Below are positions 6,978 through 36,784 of a stretch of 64,000 bases of DNA, piece after piece. Positions within the stretch are counted from its first letter, which is position 1; the number at the start of each line of letters is the position of its first letter. The stretch lies in IMG/VR virus record IMGVR_UViG_2974731182_000001; one strand, written 5' to 3'. The DNA is from a virus. Its lineage: Duplodnaviria; Heunggongvirae; Uroviricota; Caudoviricetes; Crassvirales. The notes below the pieces were generated by a model that searched no databases, was not told the DNA's origin, and was given only the letters and a program-made list of their open reading frames with translations. A program made the translations under genes and the position numbers.

Positions 6978-7049
6978 ACTCTTATAGTTCAATGTATAGA
7001 ACAATTCTCTTCTAGAGAGTAGATATAGGTTCGATTCCTATTAGGAGTG
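6978..7049 (+). tRNA. tRNA, anticodon probably UCU (Arg)
   Basis: ACTCTTA-ta-GTTC-aatgtata-GAAC-a-ATTCT-cttctag-AGAGT-agat-ATAGG-ttcgatt-CCTAT-TAGGAGT-g. All stems pair (one G.U in each of the acceptor and anticodon stems). The T-loop is TTCGATT. Confidence 0.65.
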
Positions 7050-7204
7050 CGCAGGAAATCATAATAATACAAAAAGCCCATGAAAGATAGGAGTAATATA
7101 GGTTCAATAGCAATTATACGTATAGCAAAACACTTATACCTTTCTCAGATTCAATAAAGATTTTTGTTTATTTGACTGATAGGAATAGACTATCATTTTT
7201 AAAA

Positions 7205-7276
7205 GACTCCTTAGTTCAATGGAAAGAACAGTGGCCTTCTAAGCCTCTAATCCCAGTTCGAATCTGGGAGGAGCCA
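7205..7276 (+). tRNA. tRNA, anticodon probably UCU (Arg), different sequence from the first
   Basis: GACTCCT-ta-GTTC-aatggaaa-GAAC-a-GTGGC-cttctaa-GCCTC-taat-CCCAG-ttcgaat-CTGGG-AGGAGCC-a. There is one A-C mismatch at position 2-71. The T-loop is TTCGAAT. Confidence 0.6.
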
Positions 7277-7313
7277 CAATAACTATTTATACCTTTTATT
7301 CATTAACTTTTAA

Positions 7314-7755: not shown

Positions 7756-8319
7756 CTATAGGTGGAAGAAGATGTTACATACAGCAAAAAAATCAGTATT
7801 AACAACTTCTTCCACTATAATACGGGGCATGATTTGGTTTTGATTGCTAATTATTTGGTAAGAGAACATGTAAAGACTGATGGAAAGACATCAAAACTTT
7901 AACTGGCAACACTTATAGAGCTGCCGCCTAACTTATAGGCTGAGCCTCACTTGCTTGGAAACAGAAAGGTGAACAATAGGGTCAAGAAGGAAGTTAATAA
8001 GGCTATACCTACTTTCAATACACCTTTAATTGATCATAGTTTGTTTATTAGTCAAGGAGCAAGCTGTCTGGTGTATACAGAGGGTGTGACCCTTTCAATT
8101 TTAATTCTTATAACTCCTTATGAAGATTTCTCTATTAGATTAAATAGAGTGGTGGATCTGTCAACTATCGGTTGACCCCAGTAGAGAACCTACTACATAT
8201 CAAAGTGGTAAACATGTGAAATTCTTTTATTAAAAGTTAGTAAGACGAGGGTTTAAGTTCGGACCCACTTACTAGTGATAGTATTTACAAAATAGGATGA
8301 ACTCAGGGAACGCTAAAAT

Positions 8320-8470
8320 AAAAGCTCAGAACTAGCTTTTATCATGCCAATCCTGAGCTAAGCATTAGGTACACCTAATGAAAGTGCAACGACTACTGGA
8401 GGAGTACAGTCTCCTTAATTACCAGCTTGAGCGTCCTACCCTCAAATTATTGAGGTGATGATATAGTCTA
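8320..8470 (+). ncRNA. Group I intron-like catalytic core (P4 and P7 element look-alikes)
   Basis: GCTCAG (8324-8329) pairs with CTGAGC inside AATCCTGAGC (8349-8358), resembling the P/Q elements and P4. AACGACTAC (8388-8396) resembles R (cAGAGACUACa). GATATAGTC (8460-8468) resembles S (AAGAUAUAGUCC). GACTA/TAGTC can form P7. Confidence 0.4.
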
Positions 8471-9028
8471 ATCTTCTATGAAAATAGAAGCAGCAATTTC
8501 TCTGAGATAAGCTTTAGTAGTCTCATCTGACATAGTTCCTTTAAGATAATTGATAGGAGTCGCAACAAATTGCACGTTACCTTTAATATATCCTTTAGAA
8601 GAATCTATTCTGTCAAGTGAAGCTCTATATCTTATGTCAGGATTAGTATTCCAAGTAGGTAAAACAAGTTTAAGTCTTGTATAAGGACAAATACCATTTT
8701 GTGAGTTCCAAAGTTCCACAAGATAAGGTAAATCTAGATTAAATTCTTTACACCTGTTTCTTACGGTTCTTAGAATTTCTCTAAATGGTGTGTACTCATC
8801 ATTTCTATTACTACTATAGTTTCTTATAGAGTTTCTAGACCCTATTTGAGCTTGAGTAAGAGGCTTGTTGAGAGATGCAATGTATTTACCGCAACAAGAC
8901 CTTGAACAAAAGTTATGTCTGCCTAATTTAATATTTCTTTTATACTCTGATTCTGGTTTAGAGAAACTCTCTCTACAGTAATCACAAGTGACAGTTACTA
9001 GTTTTCTTTTCTGTTTGTATAACTCCAT
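8468..9028 (-). CDS. HNH homing endonuclease (HNH_3/AP2-type)
   Basis: N-terminal Cys-rich zinc motifs (CDYC...CSRSCC) and 'LDRIDSSKGYIKGNVQFV' (H-N-N type motif). The ORF abuts the intron-like core. Confidence 0.7.
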   Translation of the reverse strand: MELYKQKRKLVTVTCDYCRESFSKPESEYKRNIKLGRHNFCSRSCCGKYIASLNKPLTQAQIGSRNSIRNYSSNRNDEYTPFREILRTVRNRCKEFNLDLPYLVELWNSQNGICPYTRLKLVLPTWNTNPDIRYRASLDRIDSSKGYIKGNVQFVATPINYLKGTMSDETTKAYLREIAASIFIED

Positions 9029-9205
9029 ATTTTAAGTTTTGTACAAAGTTAAGAATAATCAAGCACATAGATAACAGTATAATAGAAATTATTGTGGAAT
9101 ATTAAAGAAATTACTAACTTCGCGAATCCCTCATGCTCCACAAATTCATGAACTATAAGTAAGAGTAAAATTATTTGTAACATTGAAGAAATAAATTATA
9201 TAGTA

Positions 9206-30370: not shown

Positions 30371-30639
30371 TGGATAACATAATAAAACTTAATTCTAGGG
30401 GAGGAATAGATAATTGTCTAAGAAAACTCAAGAATATGAGTGGAAAAGATTCCAAAACCTATGTATTAAAGCATGATTATATAAATGTGAAATCTGGGTA
30501 TGTAGAAGAGACTAAGAGATTTATTTCTCCGCCAGGAGGCCCCATGATAATAGAAGGAGAGTTCCTGAAAGAAGCTGGAGCAGTTGTTAAGTCTATTATT
30601 TATTCAATAGGGTATGGACATATTATAATATTTGAATAA
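30370..30639 (+). CDS. hypothetical protein
   Basis: 89-aa ORF. Confidence 0.4.
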   Translation: MDNIIKLNSRGGIDNCLRKLKNMSGKDSKTYVLKHDYINVKSGYVEETKRFISPPGGPMIIEGEFLKEAGAVVKSIIYSIGYGHIIIFE

Positions 30640-32603
30640 TGATATATGTAGTTACGAAAAATATAGAATTATTTGAACCTGAGAAGTACAAAATAATAGG
30701 GGTAGACGAGAGTCTATCCCTACTTAAACCTCTTAGAATTGTAGGAGTTGATACCGAGACTAGTGGATTAAGTTGTCATAAGGATAAGCTCTTGTCATTG
30801 CAATTAGGGTGCTTTGATTTTCAAGTAGTAATAGATTGTCTTACTACAGATATTACTTTATATGAAAACTATCTTGAATCTGATAGGCTTTTCTTATTTC
30901 ATAATGCCAAATTTGATCTACAGTGGCTTTATAAATACCATATAGTTCCTCGTAATGTCTATGACTTGTTTCTAGCAGAGAAACTAATGTGGTTGGGTTA
31001 CCCTACTGTATTAAGTCCGGAAGTATGGGATAAGATACAATGTCCTAGGTATGACTATGTACCAGCAGATCCTAGTAAGAAAAGTTCAAAAGCCAAGTAT
31101 GTCTTGTATATGAATCTGAAAAAGTTAGGTGAAATGTACCTTGGAATAGAACTAGATAAGTCTATAAGAGGACAAATCATCTATAAAGGCCTTACAGAAG
31201 ATGTTATAGTTTATGCTGCTAATGATGTGAAGTACCTTGAGAAGATACGAGAATTACAACTGAAACAATTAGAGAAGCAAGGACTTCTTACTGCCATGGA
31301 GTATGAAAACAAGGCTATACTTCCTATTGCTTATATGTGCTATTGTGGCATAAAGATGGACAAAGATAAATGGCAAAAGAAAATGGAGCATGATCAATCT
31401 ATTCTTAATAGTATTAAAAGTGAAATGGATAAGTGGCTTATAGAGCATGAACCTGATTCAAAATATATTAAGATAGATAGACAAGGTAACCTATTTTTAG
31501 GTTTTAATACCGAGCCCCAAGTAACTCTCAATTGGAATAGTCCTAAACAAGTTATCCCCTTATTCAAGAAATATGGAGTCGATACCACTGCTCTGGATAA
31601 AGAAGATGATGAGGATAAGGACAGTATAGGAGCTAAGGTACTAGGCCCTCAGAAGGATAAGTGCAGTCTTATTCCCTTATATATAAGGTATAAGGAAATG
31701 AAAAAGCTGTGCAGTACTTATGGAGCAAATGTACTTAAGCAGATAGACAAGGATACTGGAAGGCTATATACCAACTTTAACTCATTGGGTACTGATACAG
31801 CAAGAATAAGCTCAGGAGGTAAGGACAAGTCAGCTAAGGTTGAGTACGTAAATATGCTTAATATGCCTGCTGATGCTAGGACTAGGGCTTGTTTCATAGC
31901 TGAAAGTGGCAATAAATGGATAAGTGCTGATTACTCAGGGCAAGAATCATTTATCATGGCTGATGTAGCTGATGATAAGGAGATGATTAGAGAGCTTACC
32001 TATGGTGAGAAGGACCTACATACACTAACTGCAAAGATAGTATTTCCTGAAATTCCTAAAGATATGCCTGCCAAAGAAGTTAAGAAGCAGTATCATAAGT
32101 TGAGAAGTGAGGCTAAAGGTTATGAGTTTGCTTTTAATTACGCTGGTAATGACAACACCATTATGAGGAACTTTGGGCTTACAGCTAAAAGAGCTAAAGA
32201 GATATATGACAATTATATGAAAGGTTTTAATGGTCTTAAAAGATATATTGAGTTCAGAAAGAAGGACTGGTTCAGTAAAGGCTATATAGACCTTAATCCT
32301 AAAGTTGGATATAGAGCCTATATCTATGATTGGAACTATCTTAGGAAGCTACAAGTAAAGTTTAAGGAACCTGGGTTTTGGGATTACTATAGGGAAATGA
32401 AAATAGATGCTCCTAAATGTGATACGGTGCAGATGGTAAAAGAGTTCTTTAAGAGGAAGTCTGATTCTGATAGGCAATCCGTTAATTATCCTATACAGCA
32501 TACTGGAGCATTGTGTTATAAGGTAAGCATGATAAACTTTTTTGAATACTTAAGACGTAATGACTTATTATTCAAGGTATTGATTACTGTAACACCCTAC
32601 GAT
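30639..32603 (+). CDS. polA: DNA polymerase I family A, exon 1 (3'-5' exonuclease plus polymerase motifs A and B)
   Basis: Exo I 'VGVDTETSGL', Exo II 'FHNAKFDLQWL', Exo III 'YAANDVKYL'. Polymerase motif A 'SADYSGQESFIMAD', motif B 'RSEAKGYEFAFNYAG', pre-motif C 'RQSVNYPIQHTGA'. The track ORF runs to the TAA at 32607-32609; the exon ends at 32603 if the intron is spliced. Confidence 0.8.
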
Positions 32604-33467
32604 AAGTAATTTTGTTGTAGTAAAACAGTGTTAATTGCTTGAAACCCTTAAAGATTTAATCACTGAATTATTGTAATAATAAACTAGTAAAAGTATTAAA
32701 TATGATTTTAAGTAACTTAAGAGAAATAGGCAATAAGCAGCTTTATGATTTTACAAGAGAGCAAACTCAGGTTTTTCTTACTGCTATATTAGGGGATGGT
32801 TGCATATCTACTACTAATAGTGGTAGTACTATATATACATCCAATTGTAAGCATAAGGAATACTTAGAGTATAAAAAACAATTAATTGGTAAAGGCAAAA
32901 TAAATCATGTAGATAGCAATGGCTATAACCAAACTCCAATATATACTTATTATGGAGGAGCTTGGTCTTCACTTAAATTAATCAAGGAACTCCCTATAGA
33001 AGAAGTAGTGAGTAATCTTGATGAGTTAGGTTTAGCATTGTGGTTCTATGATGATGGGAGCCTTCATAAGAGGGACTTATATTACAACCTTAATACTCAG
33101 AAATTTTCTCTGAGTATTCAAGAAAATGTATTTATTCCTTTCTTTGAGAGTATAGGAGTAAAAGCTAAAGTAAGAGTAGATAATAATCATAGCAAACCAT
33201 TATATTATTTAGGAATAAATAAATATGAGGGAGCCTATATTATTCATTCTATATTAGCTAAATATCCTATTAATTGTTACTCTTATAAATTATGGAGTTC
33301 AGAGACTATCCAGAAATGGAGTAAGCTGCAAGAGCAGCTGAAAAGCACTGATAGAAATCTAACCAATGGGCAACTAGCCTATATGTGGAGATTTTTATAA
33401 GATATAGTCCGACCTTTAGAGAAATCTAAAGAGAATATGTGGAATCGACATATTCGTAACATATGTG
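32604..33467 (+). mobile_element. Group I intron (864 nt) interrupting polA at motif C, carrying a LAGLIDADG homing endonuclease ORF
   Basis: The 5' exon ends in U (..CTACGAT). P1: the exon CTACGAT pairs with the intron GTTGTAG (32614-32620), including the U.G wobble at the splice site. AAGATATAGTCC (33399-33410) matches the S consensus exactly. The intron ends in G (33467). Joining 32603 to 33468 is in frame and restores '..TPYD-EINCEAPEE..'. Confidence 0.6.
32702..33400 (+). CDS. LAGLIDADG homing endonuclease (double-motif, intron-encoded)
   Basis: Two LAGLIDADG-type motifs: 'FLTAILGDGCIS' and 'LALWFYDDGSL'. The ORF is free-standing with its own ATG inside the intron. Confidence 0.7.
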   Translation: MILSNLREIGNKQLYDFTREQTQVFLTAILGDGCISTTNSGSTIYTSNCKHKEYLEYKKQLIGKGKINHVDSNGYNQTPIYTYYGGAWSSLKLIKELPIEEVVSNLDELGLALWFYDDGSLHKRDLYYNLNTQKFSLSIQENVFIPFFESIGVKAKVRVDNNHSKPLYYLGINKYEGAYIIHSILAKYPINCYSYKLWSSETIQKWSKLQEQLKSTDRNLTNGQLAYMWRFL

Positions 33468-33785
33468 GAAATCAACTGTGAAGCTCCAGAAGAGATAGCG
33501 GAAGATATAGCTAAAGTACTATATGATATAATGGTTAAAGCTGGAGCATATTTTGTTCACAGGGTAAAGTTGGATGTAGACGTGTCCAGACATAAATTAT
33601 GTATAGGAGACTTTGAATTTAATGGAGAGAAGATCATGGTTAAGGGTGATATTATAGCCTCTATGGGGGAAGATGTTCTAGTAAATACCAGAACTAATCA
33701 GTCTTATAAAATAAAAGACTTACCAAAGAGCTATAGAGAATACCTCGACGACAATGGTCCTCTGCCTACTTATTGGGTACATTAA
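33468..33785 (+). CDS. polA: DNA polymerase I family A, exon 2 (C-terminal motif C region)
   Basis: 'EINCEAPEEIAEDIAKVLYDIM' aligns with Taq 'ELVLEAPKERAEAVARLAKEVME' directly after the catalytic HDE. The C-terminus '..TYWVH' matches the conserved family-A terminal W..H. The track calls it as a GTG-initiated ORF from 33465. Confidence 0.6.
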   Translation, partial: EINCEAPEEIAEDIAKVLYDIMVKAGAYFVHRVKLDVDVSRHKLCIGDFEFNGEKIMVKGDIIASMGEDVLVNTRTNQSYKIKDLPKSYREYLDDNGPLPTYWVH

Positions 33786-33821
33786 TTAAGATAGTATAGT
33801 AAAAGAAAATAAGTTAAGGAA

Positions 33822-34250
33822 ATGGTAAAAATTAATAAAGTGTATAAAGATCTTATAGATAAACTTGAAAATGTTATAAGGGCAGGAGTATCTATAGAGG
33901 CTTTAAATCCTATAAGGTCTGTAATGAATGAACTGAAAATCTTAGGGCAAAGACCAAAACTTGACAGTAGTGTAGATTCCTTTATGGACATAACTACTAA
34001 TATGGCTAAGACTTATGCAGCTAAGAATCACGATTATGGTAATTCCTTTGATTGTTCTCTTAATAAGTTTGGACTTATAGCAGGTCTAGTAAGGATGGGA
34101 GACAAGATGAATAGACTGGAGTCATTAGTTAATAAGAAGGCTATGGTTAAGAATGAGTCTATTAAAGATACCCTTCTGGATCTTGCTAATTATGCTATAA
34201 TGACTGTGATGTGGTTGAATAAAAGAGAAACTGGTAATGATTCCGTATAA
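33822..34250 (+). CDS. hypothetical protein (possibly all-alpha nucleotide pyrophosphohydrolase-like)
   Basis: 142 aa; 'KNHDYGNSF...GLVRMGDKMNRL'. The domain assignment is weak. Confidence 0.45.
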   Translation: MVKINKVYKDLIDKLENVIRAGVSIEALNPIRSVMNELKILGQRPKLDSSVDSFMDITTNMAKTYAAKNHDYGNSFDCSLNKFGLIAGLVRMGDKMNRLESLVNKKAMVKNESIKDTLLDLANYAIMTVMWLNKRETGNDSV

Positions 34251-34524
34251 AATGAAACACAAGGCTACTGGGCTTTACTATAAGCCTGGTAGACCTAATT
34301 TGTCTAAGATAGGGAAAGTCTACGGTACAGGAAATAATGGATTAAACTATATGGGAAATAATAAGTTTGTGAATATCATTAGTACTAAAGCACCTTTATC
34401 TAGAAGGCTTGAATCCTTGGGATATAAACTAAGATGGGTTGAATTTGGGACTCACTGTTGCTTTGAGATTCCTAAATCTGAATTTGAAATAGAATATCTA
34501 ACTAGTAACGAAGGAGGGAAGTAG
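34237..34524 (+). CDS. hypothetical protein
   Basis: 95-aa ORF. Confidence 0.4.
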   Translation: MIPYKMKHKATGLYYKPGRPNLSKIGKVYGTGNNGLNYMGNNKFVNIISTKAPLSRRLESLGYKLRWVEFGTHCCFEIPKSEFEIEYLTSNEGGK

Positions 34525-34938
34525 ATGGTAATAGCAGTAGATTTTGATGGAACTTATGTAACTCATGAGTTCCCTAAAATAGGTAAAGATATAGGTGCAA
34601 TACCTGTATTGAGAAAACTAGTAGAGAAAGAACATCAAATTATCTTATATACTATGAGGAGTCACTGTAGCAATAAATGTGTTACCAATGAGGGTGTTAG
34701 ACTTGTGGATACTCTTCAGGAAGCTATTGATTGGTTTCGTAAAAACGAGATTCCTCTATATGGTGTCAATGAAAATCCTACCCAACATAATTGGACTTCC
34801 TCTAAAAAGATATTTGCACATATTTATATAGATGATAGTGCTCTTGGAATACCACTAAAGCATGATGAATATAGTACATTACCCTATGTGGATTGGAATG
34901 GAGTAGAGATTTTACTAAAGATGAGAGGAATTTTGTAG
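34525..34938 (+). CDS. HAD-superfamily phosphatase-like protein
   Basis: Motif I 'IAVDFDGT' (DxDGT) at the N-terminus. Confidence 0.5.
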   Translation: MVIAVDFDGTYVTHEFPKIGKDIGAIPVLRKLVEKEHQIILYTMRSHCSNKCVTNEGVRLVDTLQEAIDWFRKNEIPLYGVNENPTQHNWTSSKKIFAHIYIDDSALGIPLKHDEYSTLPYVDWNGVEILLKMRGIL

Positions 34939-34954
34939 ATTTTAAAAAGATTCC

Positions 34955-35164
34955 ATGCAAAGAAAACAATATACAAGGAGAGAATTTATTAAAATGGTAG
35001 AGAGTAATGGCTTCTATTATGATAGATGTAATGGAAGCCATTCTATTTACATAAATAGTGAAGGGAGGCATATCAGCATCCCGAAGAACATTAAGGACGT
35101 GATTATTAGGAGGTTGATTAAGGAGAATAACCTAGATACGAACTTAAAGAAAAAGAAGAAATGA
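34955..35164 (+). CDS. hypothetical protein
   Basis: 69-aa ORF. Confidence 0.35.
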   Translation: MQRKQYTRREFIKMVESNGFYYDRCNGSHSIYINSEGRHISIPKNIKDVIIRRLIKENNLDTNLKKKKK

Positions 35165-35472
35165 CTGAAAGTGGATATTATCCAGAAGGAGTGGAACATA
35201 ATGATCATTCCCCATGGAATATAAAATCAAATTCAAGTAGGAAAATTGAGGTTGAAGCTACTATAACATTAAGTAAGATAGTACCGATATGGGTAGATGA
35301 CTATACAATAGTGGATTCAGGGGTAGATGAAGATGGGGATTACTTTGAAGACATAGACTACTCAGAATGTGATATAGAAGGAGCAGTAAGAGACCAAATT
35401 ATACTACCAGATAAAGGTAATTTAAATGAGTGGAAGGTAGATAGTCTAGAAGTAGAAATTAAGAAATGTTGA
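35161..35472 (+). CDS. hypothetical acidic protein
   Basis: 103-aa ORF. Confidence 0.4.
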   Translation: MTESGYYPEGVEHNDHSPWNIKSNSSRKIEVEATITLSKIVPIWVDDYTIVDSGVDEDGDYFEDIDYSECDIEGAVRDQIILPDKGNLNEWKVDSLEVEIKKC

Positions 35473-35487
35473 TGATATAATAAAGAA

Positions 35488-35820
35488 ATGAAAGCGAAAG
35501 TTAAAACAACAGGGGAAGTCATAGAGGTATCACAGACAGAAAATATTATCACCAAAAGAGGAGTGGAGCGTCAATATGTTGATAACAAGCGTAGTTGGTG
35601 TACATACGTGCAATCAGAACTTGAATTTATTAAAGAAGAACCATGCAAGACTATTGATTGGGAGCAACGTAGGTACGAGATAGCCAAAGATATGATGACT
35701 TCTGCTGAACAACATAACAATGACACAACAGGATTCAAAAATACAATGGCACAAGCGCAATATGCAATAGAATGTGCCGATGCCCTCATTACGGAATTGA
35801 AGAAAGAAGACAAGCAATGA
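35488..35820 (+). CDS. hypothetical protein
   Basis: 110-aa ORF. Confidence 0.4.
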   Translation: MKAKVKTTGEVIEVSQTENIITKRGVERQYVDNKRSWCTYVQSELEFIKEEPCKTIDWEQRRYEIAKDMMTSAEQHNNDTTGFKNTMAQAQYAIECADALITELKKEDKQ

Positions 35821-36098
35821 ACATACTGATAAGTTTTATAATTTTAATAATAGCGGCCAGCTTATATATTTTCATAAGAAATGAAAAAGTATTTGTTTTC
35901 AGAATGTATATAATAGATAGAGCTTATGATGAGCTACTTCGCATATCACATGAAGATATTGATAAGTATGAATCTATGCATAAAGAATGGAATAAAATTT
36001 ATGATAGACATTCCTATAACAAAATGCTTTTTAGCTTTAAGCCTTTGAAATCAGAACAATGGTTTACTGAGGAAGAAATCAAGAAATTCAATCTATAA
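35772..36098 (+). CDS. hypothetical protein with N-terminal TM helix
   Basis: 108-aa ORF. Confidence 0.4.
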   Translation: MCRCPHYGIEERRQAMNILISFIILIIAASLYIFIRNEKVFVFRMYIIDRAYDELLRISHEDIDKYESMHKEWNKIYDRHSYNKMLFSFKPLKSEQWFTEEEIKKFNL

Positions 36099-36148
36099 TA
36101 TTTCTATTTGGTATGTAAGAAATATGGAAGACTTAAAAAGAAAAGATT

Positions 36149-36784
36149 ATGAAGAAGATTATGTTTAACGATAAATTTCAGCTCACCCAAGCCGTACTTG
36201 AAGGCAGAAAGACTCAGACAAGGCGGATAATTACTCCTCAGCCGACATATAAGGATAATTGCGGAATTTGCTGGAAGGGTTATGCTTACGGTCTTAGTTT
36301 TAGTAATGAGCTGTTAGGCTGTTACATAAATTTTGTATCAGGAACTGAATATGACAAGTCGTGCAAAAGATACAGGAAAGGAGAGTGTGTTGCAGTGGCA
36401 CAGAACTATGGAGACTGTGGAAATCTTCCTGATTATGAGCTTGACGAGGAAGGGTATCCAATAATGCCTAAAAGAAGCGGATACTTCAACAAAATGTTTG
36501 TCCGTGCCGGCCTTATGCCCTACCAAATCCGCATAACCAATGTACGTGTTGAACGGTTACAAGATATTTCAGATGAAGATTGTTTGAAAGAGGGAATAAT
36601 AAAAGGCAAAGTCGGCAGTGAAGATACCCATTTTATGGACGCATATTATATTCCGACATTAAAAAAAGATCCTTTTTGCACGCCACAAGGGGCTTATTCA
36701 TACTTAATCGACAAGATAATCGGTAAAGGCACATGGGAGAGAAACCCCTATGTATTTGTGTATGATTTTGAATTGGTAAAGTGA
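36149..36784 (+). CDS. ASCH-domain protein
   Basis: N-terminal 'MFNDKFQLTQAVLEGRKTQTRRII' matches the ASCH/PUA-like signature (G-R-K-T-x-T-R-R). Confidence 0.55.
   Translation: MKKIMFNDKFQLTQAVLEGRKTQTRRIITPQPTYKDNCGICWKGYAYGLSFSNELLGCYINFVSGTEYDKSCKRYRKGECVAVAQNYGDCGNLPDYELDEEGYPIMPKRSGYFNKMFVRAGLMPYQIRITNVRVERLQDISDEDCLKEGIIKGKVGSEDTHFMDAYYIPTLKKDPFCTPQGAYSYLIDKIIGKGTWERNPYVFVYDFELVK

What the first reader, a model, noticed from the sequence alone, without database searches (positions are those of the whole stretch)
30639..33785. Family-A DNA polymerase gene split at catalytic motif C by a group I intron carrying a LAGLIDADG endonuclease
The 656-aa PolA ORF stops just where the invariant (H/Y)DE of motif C should be. 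A free-standing double-LAGLIDADG ORF follows it (32702-33400). After that comes a 105-codon ORF whose sequence aligns with the family-A C-terminus ('EAPEE..', ending 'YWVH'). Reading the DNA gives a complete set of group I hallmarks. Exon 1 ends in U. The P1 helix CTACGAT/GTTGTAG has a U.G pair at the splice site. An exact S element AAGATATAGTCC lies at 33399-33410. The intron ends in G at 33467. The predicted splice is in frame and yields '...VLITVTPYD|EINCEAPEE...', giving a 760-aa polymerase. Note that YDE would replace the usual HDE. Self-splicing introns in phage DNA polymerase genes are known, but this architecture and insertion site next to the catalytic Asp are worth documenting.
Basis: seen in the sequence. 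Interest (0 to 1): 0.75.

Follow-up and report, generated by a model that had tools for sequence, protein, structure and literature searches.

The report
Mobile intron splitting a crAss-phage polymerase
The DNA polymerase gene of this human-gut crAss-like phage is interrupted, right at its catalytic Asp-Glu pair, by an unannotated 864-base group I intron that carries its own homing endonuclease; this is a real and well supported example of a kind of element already known from other phage polymerase genes.

Summary
The window is uncultured phage cr128_1 (Crassvirales, Steigviridae). GenBank annotates a truncated "DNA polymerase I" and two hypothetical proteins, with no intron.

Bases 32604-33467 are a discrete 864-nt insertion.
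- A ~98% identical IMG/VR phage contig lacks exactly these bases.
- Removing them gives ...VTPYD|EINCEAPEE..., the sequence found in the uninterrupted crAss001 and IAS-virus polymerases.
- YDE is the native motif C of this clade.

Across 14 non-redundant relatives, all inserted at the same (H/Y)D|E site, a group I fold holds: P1, P3/P7 pseudoknot, P4, P6, P7.1, P7.2, P8, P9, P9.1. It has 91% paired cells, against 34-44% for shifted controls, and 38 pairs with compensatory changes. P1 and P10 co-vary with the exon codons.

Rfam scores cr128 itself at 35 bits, below the threshold of 50. Two ORF-less relatives just pass it.

The 232-aa ORF is an I-SceI-like two-motif LAGLIDADG enzyme. It runs through most of the ribozyme core.

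Splicing and homing are inferred, not shown. The kind is known: ΦI/W31 introns sit at Pol I site 881, and phiNIT1 has a LAGLIDADG polymerase intron. I rate it a new member of a known kind, with moderate-to-low interest.

In passing: the phage's tmRNA gene is also split by a group I intron.

The parts
30639..32603 (+). PolA exon 1 (codons 1-655: 3'-5' exonuclease domain, motifs A and B, and motif C up to Tyr-Asp)
   Evidence: Pfam DNA_pol_A and DNA_pol_A_exo1. Collinear with crAss001 gp64. If unspliced, the reading frame stops two codons into the intron (AAG TAA, 32604-32609).
32604..33467 (+). Group I intron, 864 nt, inserted in phase 0 between the Asp and Glu codons of motif C
   Evidence: Absent exactly in the ~98% identical contig L097. 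Covariation-supported fold. Rfam RF00028 gives 35.1 bits, E 5e-7, on 33197-33431.
32597..32620 (+). P1 helix: exon CUACGAU (32597-32603) pairs with guide sequence GUUGUAG (32614-32620), with U32603.G32614 at the 5' splice site. The P10 strand AUUUU (32609-32613) pairs with exon 2 GAAAU (33468-33472).
   Evidence: P1 is 100% paired in 14 sequences, with 2 positions changed on both sides. P10 is 4-6 bp in all 12 exon/guide combinations and tracks the exon-2 codons.
32626..32631 (+). P3 5' strand CAGUGU; it pairs with GCACUG at 33345-33350 (long-range, crossing P7)
   Evidence: 100% paired, with 3 of 6 positions compensatory. Also predicted by RNAalifold.
32636..32739 (+). P4 (UGCUUG 32636-32641 / UAAGCA 32734-32739) enclosing P5 and a variable P5 extension. 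The endonuclease start codon (32702) lies inside this extension.
   Evidence: P4 is 100% paired with one compensatory position. RNAalifold finds a short co-varying 2-bp P5. The P5 extension itself is not resolved.
32702..33400 (+). Intron-encoded two-motif LAGLIDADG homing endonuclease gene (232 aa), I-SceI-like
   Evidence: Pfam LAGLIDADG_2 and phrog_11023. A family profile hits I-SceI (1r7m) at E 1.2e-4 over nearly its full length. GDG and DDG are invariant in 8 relatives. The stop codon overlaps J8/7.
32740..33298 (+). P6 (GCUUUAUGAUUU 32740-32751 / AAAUUAUGGAGU 33287-33298) and P6a (AAGAG 32755-32759 / CUCUU 33280-33284). The bulk of the endonuclease ORF forms the P6a loop.
   Evidence: 7 of 12 P6 pairs are compensatory. 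ORF-less relatives (L017, L010, L029, L035) have a short hairpin here.
33297..33339 (+). R element GUUCAGAGACUA (with the P7 5' strand GACUA at 33304-33308), P7.1 (UCCA-GAAA-UGGA, 33309-33320) and P7.2 (AGCUGC-AAGA-GCAGCU, 33324-33339)
   Evidence: High-confidence part of the Rfam alignment. P7.2 has compensatory changes; P7 and P7.1 are invariant. Having P7.1 and P7.2 marks subgroup IA.
33353..33396 (+). P8 (AGAAAUCU 33353-33360 / AGAUUUUU 33389-33396, with internal stems)
   Evidence: 93% paired, 6 of 8 pairs compensatory.
33399..33410 (+). S element / J8/7 AAGAUAUAGUCC, including the P7 3' strand UAGUC (33405-33409)
   Evidence: Invariant in all relatives. Matches the Rfam consensus AAGAUAUAGUC.
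33414..33467 (+). P9 (CUUUAGA-GAAA-UCUAAAG, 33414-33431), P9.1 (33433-33455) and the 3' tail ending in the terminal G33467
   Evidence: In P9, 6 of 7 pairs are compensatory; in P9.1, 8 of 8. All 28 distinct family introns end in G.
33468..33785 (+). PolA exon 2 (codons 656-760 plus stop): begins with the catalytic Glu and ends in YWVH
   Evidence: Aligns with the C-termini of crAss001, IAS-virus and cr116_1 PolA. GenBank annotates only 33531-33785, as a hypothetical protein.

Best explanation
Bases 32604-33467 are a mobile subgroup-IA group I intron in the family-A DNA polymerase gene of crAss-like phage cr128_1. It sits between the codons for the motif-C Asp and Glu, which correspond to D882 and E883 of E. 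coli Pol I.

Inferred mechanism. The polymerase pre-mRNA folds so that the guide sequence GUUGUAG pairs with the exon end CUACGAU (P1, with a U.G pair at the splice site). The adjacent AUUUU pairs with the start of exon 2 (P10). A core built from P3-P8, with P7.1/P7.2 and P9/P9.1, positions a guanosine cofactor. Two transesterifications then release the intron, which ends in G33467. They join ...UACGAU to GAAAUC..., giving mRNA for a 760-aa polymerase with the clade's native YDE motif. Unspliced RNA would give a 656-aa protein with the exonuclease domain but an incomplete polymerase active site.

The intron also encodes a 232-aa I-SceI-like LAGLIDADG endonuclease. It starts in the P5 extension and its bulk lies in the P6a loop. 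It then reads on through P6', P7, P7.1, P7.2, P3' and P8 and stops in J8/7. By analogy with other homing endonucleases, it should cut intron-less alleles at about ACACCCTACGAT^GAAATCAACTGT during co-infection, and repair would copy the intron in.

What is shown here: the exact boundaries of the insertion, the collinearity of the spliced product, the conserved and co-varying RNA fold, the family assignment of the endonuclease, and presence/absence polymorphism in nature. What is inferred: catalytic self-splicing, endonuclease activity and its target, and homing.
For: 1. Empty site. L097 aligns to window 31435-32603 (98.8%) and 33468-36152 (98.1%) with nothing in between. In addition, 51 IMG/VR contigs carry an uninterrupted PYDEINCEA junction.
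2. Collinearity. tblastn of the spliced protein hits crAss001 and relatives in one piece across the junction. The alignment shows identical VTPYDEINCEAPE. The Pfam DNA_pol_A match extends from profile position 333 to 374 of 381 after the join.
3. RNA fold. On 14 non-redundant relatives, 91.2% of cells are paired, against 33.7-43.9% for slid controls. 38 of 74 pairs change on both sides, and 0 of 500 shuffles reach any measure. RNAalifold independently recovers P1, P3, P4, P5, P6, P7.1, P7.2, P8 and P9.
4. Splice sites. P1 and P10 co-vary with the exon codons, for example GAAAU/AUUUU, GAGAU/AUCUU, GAGUAU/AUACUU and GAAGUU/AACUUU. Every intron ends in G.
5. Rfam RF00028 gives E 5e-7 on cr128, with well aligned R, S and P9. 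ORF-less family members L029 and L035 pass the gathering score.
6. Endonuclease. Pfam LAGLIDADG_2; a family profile hits I-SceI; the catalytic-motif acidic residues are invariant.
7. All 28 distinct family introns sit at the same (H/Y)D|E site, in polymerases that are otherwise very divergent. The trimmed intron is 87% identical and its endonuclease 72% identical between cr128 and MT835492, whose polymerases are only 51% identical. That pattern fits horizontal spread.
Against: - There is no RNA evidence of splicing. No cultured phage in the collections carries this intron.
- Rfam's own model is below its gathering score on cr128 (35.1 against 50), and it did not report the ORF-less relatives L017 and L010 at that threshold.
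- P7 and P7.1 never vary, so they are uninformative.
- The P5 extension is not resolved, and there is no P2.
- Because the endonuclease ORF overlaps 52 of the 74 tested base pairs, some of the sequence conservation could come from the protein rather than the RNA. Compensatory changes are not explained that way.
- The endonuclease's activity and target site are untested.
Confidence: 0.92

Rival explanations
1. The intron is real, but it is not autonomously self-splicing. It needs a protein cofactor, either a maturase activity of its own LAGLIDADG protein or a host or phage RNA chaperone, to fold and splice in vivo.
For: The endonuclease ORF runs through the core, so ribosomes translating it and ribozyme folding compete on the same RNA. 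There is no P2 and the sequence is very A+U-rich, giving weak helices. LAGLIDADG maturases and host chaperones such as StpA and S12 are documented for bacterial and phage group I introns (PMC3984707).
Against: Phage IA2 introns with comparable cores self-splice under mild conditions (PMC3428280). ORF-less relatives that lack the protein entirely are maintained in an essential gene, so a cis-encoded maturase cannot be obligatory for the family.
Confidence: 0.2
2. The gene is a genuinely split or defective polymerase. The insertion is a decayed intron that no longer splices, and either the phage uses two polypeptides or this genome is non-viable.
For: GenBank annotates separate ORFs. A GTG at 33465 could in principle start the C-terminal fragment. 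Rfam is below its gathering score.
Against: The split would separate the two catalytic carboxylates, Asp and Glu. All core helices are intact and kept so by compensatory changes. The P1 and P10 guide pairings track the exon sequence, which only matters if splicing occurs. Near-identical intron-plus genomes recur in independent assemblies (L030, L032, L037, L038, L041). The endonuclease ORF is intact.
Confidence: 0.04
3. The interruption is something other than a group I intron, namely an intein, a group II intron, an intergenic free-standing endonuclease cassette or an assembly artefact.
For: LAGLIDADG domains also occur in inteins and as free-standing genes.
Against: The polymerase frame is broken by stop codons, so it is not an intein. 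No group II model hit was found in the Rfam scans. The same insertion with the same boundaries occurs in many independent contigs. The group I core is present and co-varies.
Confidence: 0.01

Closest known systems
[quoted passage not shown]
   Same: A self-splicing-type group I intron in a family-A phage polymerase, inserted in motif C (reported as E. coli Pol I site 881, the His of HDE). According to the abstract as I recall it, the endonuclease ORF lies in P6a. Both have the P7.1/P7.2 architecture of subgroup IA.
   Different: Their endonuclease is HNH, not LAGLIDADG. The hosts are enterobacterial podophages. There is no detectable nucleotide similarity to any annotated phage outside crAss-like genomes. 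The cr128 site is between residues 882 and 883. I could not read the original paper, so I cannot say whether it is the same phosphodiester bond or one to two codons away. In cr128 the ORF extends through the ribozyme core.
phiNIT1 (Bastillevirinae) DNA polymerase intron encoding a LAGLIDADG_2 / phrog_11023 endonuclease (PMC11878797)
   Same: The same endonuclease PHROG family, which is the best PHROG hit of the cr128 ORF. It lies in a group I intron of a phrog_17 family-A polymerase. That paper also notes overlap between nuclease genes and conserved intron elements, and partial Rfam hits split by endonuclease loops.
   Different: A Bacillus phage of the Herelleviridae. The insertion site was not compared here. 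Splicing was shown experimentally there but not here.
SPO1/SP82/Bastille/Pf-WMP3 polymerase introns (site 674) and the phiL7 intron (site 676)
   Same: Mobile group I introns in conserved catalytic regions of phage family-A polymerases (PMC3428280).
   Different: A different insertion site, in the fingers subdomain rather than motif C, and HNH nicking endonucleases.
Group I introns of Delta and Zeta crAss-like phages (Yutin et al. 2021, PMC7886860)
   Same: The same virus order. Group I introns with LAGLIDADG or other endonucleases in core genes.
   Different: [quoted passage not shown] The paper describes the alpha-gamma group as lacking mobile-element insertions. A PolA motif-C intron in Steigviridae is not described in the papers I could read, and it is not annotated in the GenBank record.
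I-SceI (PDB 1r7m), the monomeric two-motif LAGLIDADG homing endonuclease
   Same: The family profile aligns over almost the whole protein, including both LAGLIDADG motifs. Both fall in Pfam family PF03161.
   Different: The similarity is very distant (E about 1e-4, and only with a profile; a single-sequence search found nothing). I-SceI lies in a yeast mitochondrial rRNA intron.

Membership tests
Group I intron (Rfam RF00028) | U at position -1 of the 5' exon, paired with G in P1 formed with an internal guide sequence | tested here: met
   U32603.G32614. P1 is 7 bp, 100% paired in 14 relatives, and co-varies with the His/Tyr codon and the preceding codon.
Group I intron (Rfam RF00028) | Terminal G at the 3' end of the intron, and P10 pairing of the guide sequence with the 3' exon | tested here: met
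   G33467. P10 is AUUUU/GAAAU. All 12 exon/guide combinations keep 4-6 bp with compensatory changes.
Group I intron (Rfam RF00028) | Conserved core: P3-P4-P5-P6 and P7-P3'-P8-P7', with the P3/P7 pseudoknot and the P, Q, R, S sequence elements in order | tested here: met
   All helices were located. 91.2% of cells are paired and 38 pairs are compensatory. RNAalifold agrees. R is GUUCAGAGACUA and S is AAGAUAUAGUCC, both matching the Rfam consensus. P7 is invariant, so it is supported only by sequence.
Group I intron (Rfam RF00028) | Score at or above the curated gathering threshold (50 bits) | tested here: not met
   cr128 scores 35.1 bits, E 5.3e-7, and gives no hit in the gathering-mode scan. 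In that alignment the 5' half of the model was forced into the ORF. ORF-less members of the same family score 50.6 (L029) and 51.3 (L035). An ORF-deleted cr128 construct could not be scored with the tools available.
Group I intron (Rfam RF00028) | Guanosine-dependent self-splicing | not testable with these tools
   Needs an in vitro or in vivo RNA assay.
Subgroup IA (IA2-like) | Extra helices P7.1 and P7.2 between P7 and P3' | tested here: met
   UCCA-GAAA-UGGA (33309-33320) and AGCUGC-AAGA-GCAGCU (33324-33339). P7.2 co-varies.
Subgroup IA (IA2-like) | Assignment to IA2 rather than IA1 or IA3 (details of P2, P9 and other peripheral elements) | tested here: inconclusive
   There is no P2: only UAAAA lies between P1 and P3. 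The ORF in P6a resembles T4 td and PhiI. No subgroup-specific models were available.
LAGLIDADG homing endonuclease (two-motif monomer, PF03161) | Pfam score above the curated cutoff, and two LAGLIDADG motifs each with a conserved acidic residue | tested here: met
   41.9 bits against 25. G31-D32-G33 and D117-D118-G119 are invariant in 8 relatives. A profile hits I-SceI at E 1.2e-4.
LAGLIDADG homing endonuclease (two-motif monomer, PF03161) | Site-specific cleavage of the intron-less allele | not testable with these tools
   The candidate target is the L097 junction ACACCCTACGAT|GAAATCAACTGT.
Mobile (homing) intron | Presence/absence polymorphism at the same site among close relatives, with an intact endonuclease gene | tested here: met
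   L097 is the empty allele at ~98% identity. There are 51 empty and at least 28 occupied distinct alleles in IMG/VR. ORF-plus and ORF-minus forms of the same intron both exist (L022 versus L010).
Family A DNA polymerase | Pol I-type polymerase domain with motifs A, B and C, and a 3'-5' exonuclease domain | tested here: met
   Pfam DNA_pol_A 169.7 bits over profile positions 29-374 of 381 after the join, plus DNA_pol_A_exo1. 71.5% identical to crAss001 gp64.

The most novel reading that the evidence does not exclude
This is one member of a previously undescribed intron family that is widespread in the gut virome. The family is specific to the motif-C (H/Y)D|E site of PolA across divergent crAss-like phages, including Steigviridae, a family in which the papers I read report no introns. 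In this family an I-SceI-like LAGLIDADG gene is co-encoded with the ribozyme core from P5 to J8/7, so protein and RNA co-evolve on the same nucleotides. ORF-less derivatives arise by clean loss of the P6a loop. The endonuclease may act as a weapon between co-infecting crAss-like phages, as shown for an intron endonuclease in PhiPA3 (PMC11620839), and so shape which polymerase alleles persist.
Probability: 0.3. Interest if true: 0.55.

Novelty: new member of a known kind. Interest (0 to 1): 0.38.

Why it matters
- It corrects the annotation of an essential gene in a RefSeq and ICTV exemplar genome (Mahlunavirus rarus). What is listed as a truncated polymerase plus two hypothetical proteins is one 760-aa polymerase, an intron and a homing endonuclease.
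- It shows that self-splicing introns occur in Steigviridae (crAss001-like phages), a family in which the papers I read do not report them. They form a sizeable family: at least 28 distinct variants in IMG/VR, all at the same catalytic site.
- The natural intron-plus and intron-minus pair at ~98% identity gives a ready-made system for testing homing and intron-mediated competition among the most abundant human gut phages.
- The extensive overlap between the endonuclease ORF and the ribozyme core is a clean case for studying dual coding constraints.
- None of this changes current understanding of group I introns.

Tried and rejected
- Rfam at gathering threshold found no intron in the polymerase gene. 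The E-value scan found only the 3' half and mis-aligned the 5' half into the ORF.
- My first reading took the local hairpin CAGUGUUAA...UUAAUCACUG (32626-32666) as P2. I rejected it because MT835492 breaks that pairing, while the long-range P3 pairing with 33345-33350 shows two compensatory changes.
- My first guess that AUGAUUUUAAG (the ORF start) pairs with CUUAUAAAUUAU as P6a was replaced by P6 at 32740-51/33287-98, once the Q element GGCAAUAAGCAGC was recognised inside the ORF by comparison with the compact relatives.
- A single-sequence PDB search with the endonuclease found nothing. Only a family profile reached I-SceI.
- A distant blastn search of the ORF-trimmed intron against 50,697 phage records found only cr128_1, MT835492 and a weak 75-nt match in PQ006092. 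So no link to the PhiI/W31 or Bacillus-phage introns could be shown.
- The Bonocora & Shub 2004 paper could not be read, so the exact PhiI/W31 insertion point remains second-hand.
- A full-length covariance model of the family was not attempted. At about 380 columns it would exceed the tool's calibration limit.
- I considered co-conversion of flanking exon sequence as evidence for homing and dropped it. The flanks are conserved catalytic sequence anyway, so the signal is uninformative.
- ARAGORN did not recognise my spliced tmRNA construct. The tmRNA identification rests instead on the annotated cr106_1 homologue.


Full report
**Identity of the window.** Bases 30639-33785 are 100% identical to uncultured phage cr128_1 (MT774392.1 / NC_055885.1; Crassvirales, Steigviridae, Mahlunavirus rarus), and the coordinates are the same. 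The record annotates a "DNA polymerase I" at 30639-32609, a hypothetical protein at 32702-33400 and another at 33531-33785. No intron is annotated.

**Checking the observation.** The three ORFs are as described.
- The 656-aa ORF has the 3'-5' exonuclease domain. Its DNA_pol_A match stops at profile position 333 of 381.
- The 232-aa ORF matches Pfam LAGLIDADG_2 above the curated cutoff and PHROG 11023, "homing endonuclease with LAGLIDADG motif".
- The third ORF has no family hit on its own.
- The sequence details hold at the stated positions: U at 32603, CTACGAT/GTTGTAG, AAGATATAGTCC at 33399-33410 and G at 33467.
- Joining 32603 to 33468 gives a 760-aa protein. Its DNA_pol_A match then extends to position 374 of 381 and gains about 21 bits.

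**Is the join right?** tblastn of the joined protein hits crAss001, the PhiCrAssBcn isolates, cr112_1 and IAS virus in a single piece that crosses the junction, at up to 71.5% identity. In the alignment, the uninterrupted crAss001 and IAS-virus proteins read LITVTPYDEINCEAPE and LICVTPYDEINCEAPA. The cr128 join therefore restores the conserved sequence residue for residue, and Tyr-Asp-Glu is the normal motif C of this clade. More distant relatives have His-Asp-Glu.

The strongest evidence is a natural empty site. IMG/VR contig IMGVR_UViG_3300045988_097391 (L097) aligns to window 31435-32603 at 98.8% and continues directly into window 33468-36152 at 98.1%. A near-identical phage therefore lacks exactly the 864 bases predicted to be the intron. 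The end-points are unambiguous, because the bases flanking the two junctions differ. A further 50 IMG/VR contigs carry the uninterrupted PYDEINCEA coding junction.

**Is it a group I intron?** Rfam in gathering mode finds a group I intron elsewhere in the window but not here. A permissive scan gives RF00028 at 35.1 bits (E 5e-7; gathering score 50) over 33197-33431. The R element, P3', P8, the S element and the P9 GAAA hairpin align well, but the 5' half of the model is forced into the ORF.

I therefore collected relatives.
- A search for the R + P7.1 string found 46 IMG/VR contigs.
- A search with the endonuclease found 17, many of them the same contigs.
- These gave 28 distinct introns with identifiable 5' and 3' parts. 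Every one is inserted after the Asp codon of (H/Y)D|E in a PolA gene. The polymerases are very divergent: exon 2 begins EINCEAPEE, EYLIEPPEE, EVNLEAPEN, EANWEFPKD or EINVECPEY.
- Four of them (L010, L017, L029, L035; 330-369 nt) lack the ORF. They revealed the Q element and a compact P4-P6 domain. That showed that in cr128 the Q element (GGCAAUAAGCAGC, 32729-32741) lies inside the endonuclease reading frame.

I replaced the P6a loop with nothing and aligned 14 non-redundant sequences. I then tested a hand-drawn structure of 74 pairs in P1, P3, P4, P6, P6a, P7, P7.1, P7.2, P8, P9 and P9.1.
- 91.2% of cells are paired, against 33.7-43.9% when the 3' partners are slid by 1-3 columns.
- 38 pairs change on both sides. 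None of 500 shuffles reached the observed value on any measure.
- The long-range P3, which crosses P7, has three compensatory positions. P8, P9 and P9.1 are almost entirely compensatory.
- P7 and P7.1 never vary, so they rest on sequence identity to the consensus.
- RNAalifold, run without my structure, recovered P1, P3, P4, a 2-bp co-varying P5, P6, P7.1, P7.2, P8 and P9.

The guide-sequence pairings are especially telling. P1 follows the exon (CUACGAU/GUUGUAG, ACACGAU/GUUGUGU, CCACGAU/GUUGUGG, GCACGAU/GUUGUGC). P10 follows the first two codons of exon 2 (GAAAU/AUUUU, GAGAU/AUCUU, GAGUAU/AUACUU, GAAGUU/AACUUU). Every intron ends in G.

Two ORF-less family members pass Rfam's gathering score: L029 5307-5638 at 50.6 bits and L035 11614-11945 at 51.3 bits. 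L017 and L010 were not reported at that threshold. P7.1 and P7.2 place the intron in subgroup IA. There is no P2. I could not assign IA1, IA2 or IA3 formally.

**The endonuclease.** The 232-aa protein has two LAGLIDADG motifs. Its GDG and DDG residues are invariant across eight relatives that are 40-79% identical to it. A single-sequence PDB search found nothing. A profile of the family matches I-SceI over nearly its whole length, at E 1.2e-4.

The ORF is not confined to a loop. It starts at 32702 in the P5 extension and reads through P5', P4' and P6. Its bulk lies in the P6a loop. It then reads through P6', P7, P7.1, P7.2, P3' and both strands of P8, and stops at the UAA that overlaps J8/7. 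Thus 52 of the 74 tested pairs have at least one strand inside the ORF. The invariant peptide SSETI.KWSK.QE..K coincides with the R-P7.1-P7.2 segment. Overlap of endonuclease ORFs with core elements is a known arrangement (PMC3984707, Fig. 2b; PMC11878797).

The ORF-less relatives keep recognisable remnants of the N- and C-terminal coding segments, for example MDNQQLYFF... in L017. The intron of L010 (369 nt, no ORF) has the same 5' end, 3' end and exon context as that of L022 (925 nt, with ORF). The ORF-less forms therefore look like deletion derivatives.

**Mobility.** The evidence is indirect.
- There is a presence/absence polymorphism at ~98% genome identity, and both empty and occupied sites are common.
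- The ORF-trimmed intron is 87% identical and its endonuclease 72% identical between cr128 and MT835492. Their polymerases share only 51% amino-acid identity.
- Flanking-exon co-conversion could not be assessed, because the flanks are conserved catalytic sequence.

**Comparison with what is known.**
- Group I introns in phage family-A polymerase genes are classical. The SPO1, SP82, Bastille and Pf-WMP3 introns are at E. coli Pol I site 674, phiL7 at 676, and the T7-like phages PhiI and W31 at site 881, which is the His of HDE (PMC3428280). The cr128 site, between residues 882 and 883, is in the same motif. I could not read the original PhiI/W31 paper to see whether it is the same bond.
- A LAGLIDADG_2 / phrog_11023 endonuclease in a PolA intron is reported for phiNIT1 (PMC11878797).
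- Group I introns are reported in Delta and Zeta crAss-like phages (MCP, PolB, primase). The alpha-gamma group is described as free of such insertions (PMC7886860, PMC10136315).
- I found no description of a PolA intron in Steigviridae. Among 50,697 annotated phage records, only cr128_1, MT835492 and possibly PQ006092 carry this family.

I therefore rate the finding as a new member of a known kind. It is useful for annotation and as an experimental system, but not surprising to a specialist.

**What remains inferred.** Catalysis, endonuclease activity and homing are not shown. A protein-assisted rather than autonomous splicing mechanism cannot be excluded. However, the persistence of ORF-less copies in an essential gene argues against an obligatory cis-encoded maturase.

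**Seen in passing.**
- The Rfam group I hit at 8221-8490 (86 bits) belongs to a second intron (8254-9122) that splits the phage's own tmRNA gene in the T-loop. The 5' part starts GGGGCAUGAUUUGG at 7824. The T-stem GAGGG plus UU ends at 8253, with a P1 of GGGUU/GACCC and a U.G pair. The intron ends at G9122. Exon 2 is CGAAUCCCUCAUGCUCCA (9123-9140), which restores a UUCGAAU T-loop and a G3.U70 acceptor stem.
- The uninterrupted tmRNA annotated in cr106_1 reads ...GUAAGACAAGGGUUCGAGUCCCUUAUGCUCCACC and aligns across the junction.
- That intron contains an HNH/EndoVII-type endonuclease gene on the opposite strand (8468-9028).
- Intron-split tmRNA genes are known in bacteria. The T-loop subsite that appears to match this one (my count: position 3) is reported only from Bacteroidia, and none of the reported introns exceeds 700 bp (PMC11915505). 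ARAGORN did not detect the gene, even in a spliced construct.

Noticed in passing
window 7824-9140 (exon 1 7824-8253, intron 8254-9122, exon 2 9123-9140): The phage's tmRNA (SsrA) gene is unannotated and is split in its T-loop by a second group I intron of 869 nt (Rfam RF00028, 86 bits, on 8221-8490). Splicing would restore GAGGG-UUCGAAU-CCCUC and a GGGGCAU/AUGCUCC acceptor stem with G3.U70. The tag reading frame appears to end ...GNTYRAAA*. The uninterrupted, annotated tmRNA of cr106_1 (MT774378.1, 29657-29960) aligns across the junction. The T-loop subsite appears to match the one reported only from Bacteroidia (PMC11915505), and the intron is longer than any reported there. ARAGORN misses the gene, even in a spliced construct.
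   Followed up: partly
window 8468-9028, minus strand: A 186-aa HNH/EndoVII-type endonuclease gene (phrog_3322 at 7e-20; Pfam zf-FCS) lies inside the tmRNA intron, on the strand opposite to the tmRNA. Its 3' end overlaps the P9 region of the ribozyme.
   Followed up: partly
window 33597-33752 (PolA exon 2, residues about 699-750 of the spliced protein): A 52-aa in-frame insertion (LCIGDFEFNGEKIMVKGDIIASMGEDVLVNTRTNQSYKIKDLPKSYREYLDD) lies just before the C-terminal ...LPTYWVH. It is absent from crAss001, IAS virus, cr116_1 and most relatives. It is present in cr128-like contigs (L030, L021). It is too short and lacks the right junction residues to be an intein. Its function is unknown.
   Followed up: partly
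L029 5307-8053 and L035 11614-13596 (IMG/VR contigs): These relatives carry four Rfam-significant group I introns each within about 2-3 kb, on the same strand as their motif-C intron. This suggests PolA-region genes with multiple introns in some crAss-like phages.
   Followed up: no
L004 (cr116_1, NC_055882.1 record 33303-36278): The PolA gene of cr116_1 is split at a different site (after ...SINYP, before the QxTG region upstream of motif C) by an insertion with an 'endonuclease' ORF. RefSeq annotates two 'DNA polymerase I' fragments. This is probably a second, independent intron site in Steigviridae PolA.
   Followed up: no
relatives L008, L009, L022, L045, L052 (P5 extension, about 20-60 nt upstream of the endonuclease start codon); not cr128 itself: Several family members have TAnnTTTG-like strings (TATATTTG, TATCTTTG) just upstream of the endonuclease ORF. 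From memory, these resemble the Bacteroides -7 promoter element. They might be an internal promoter for the endonuclease. cr128 lacks an exact match.
   Followed up: no
window 6978-7050 and 7205-7277: Two tRNA-Arg(TCT) genes lie just upstream of the tmRNA gene. cr106_1 has a tRNA-Arg and a tRNA-Ile in the same position before its tmRNA, so this is a conserved small-RNA cluster.
   Followed up: no
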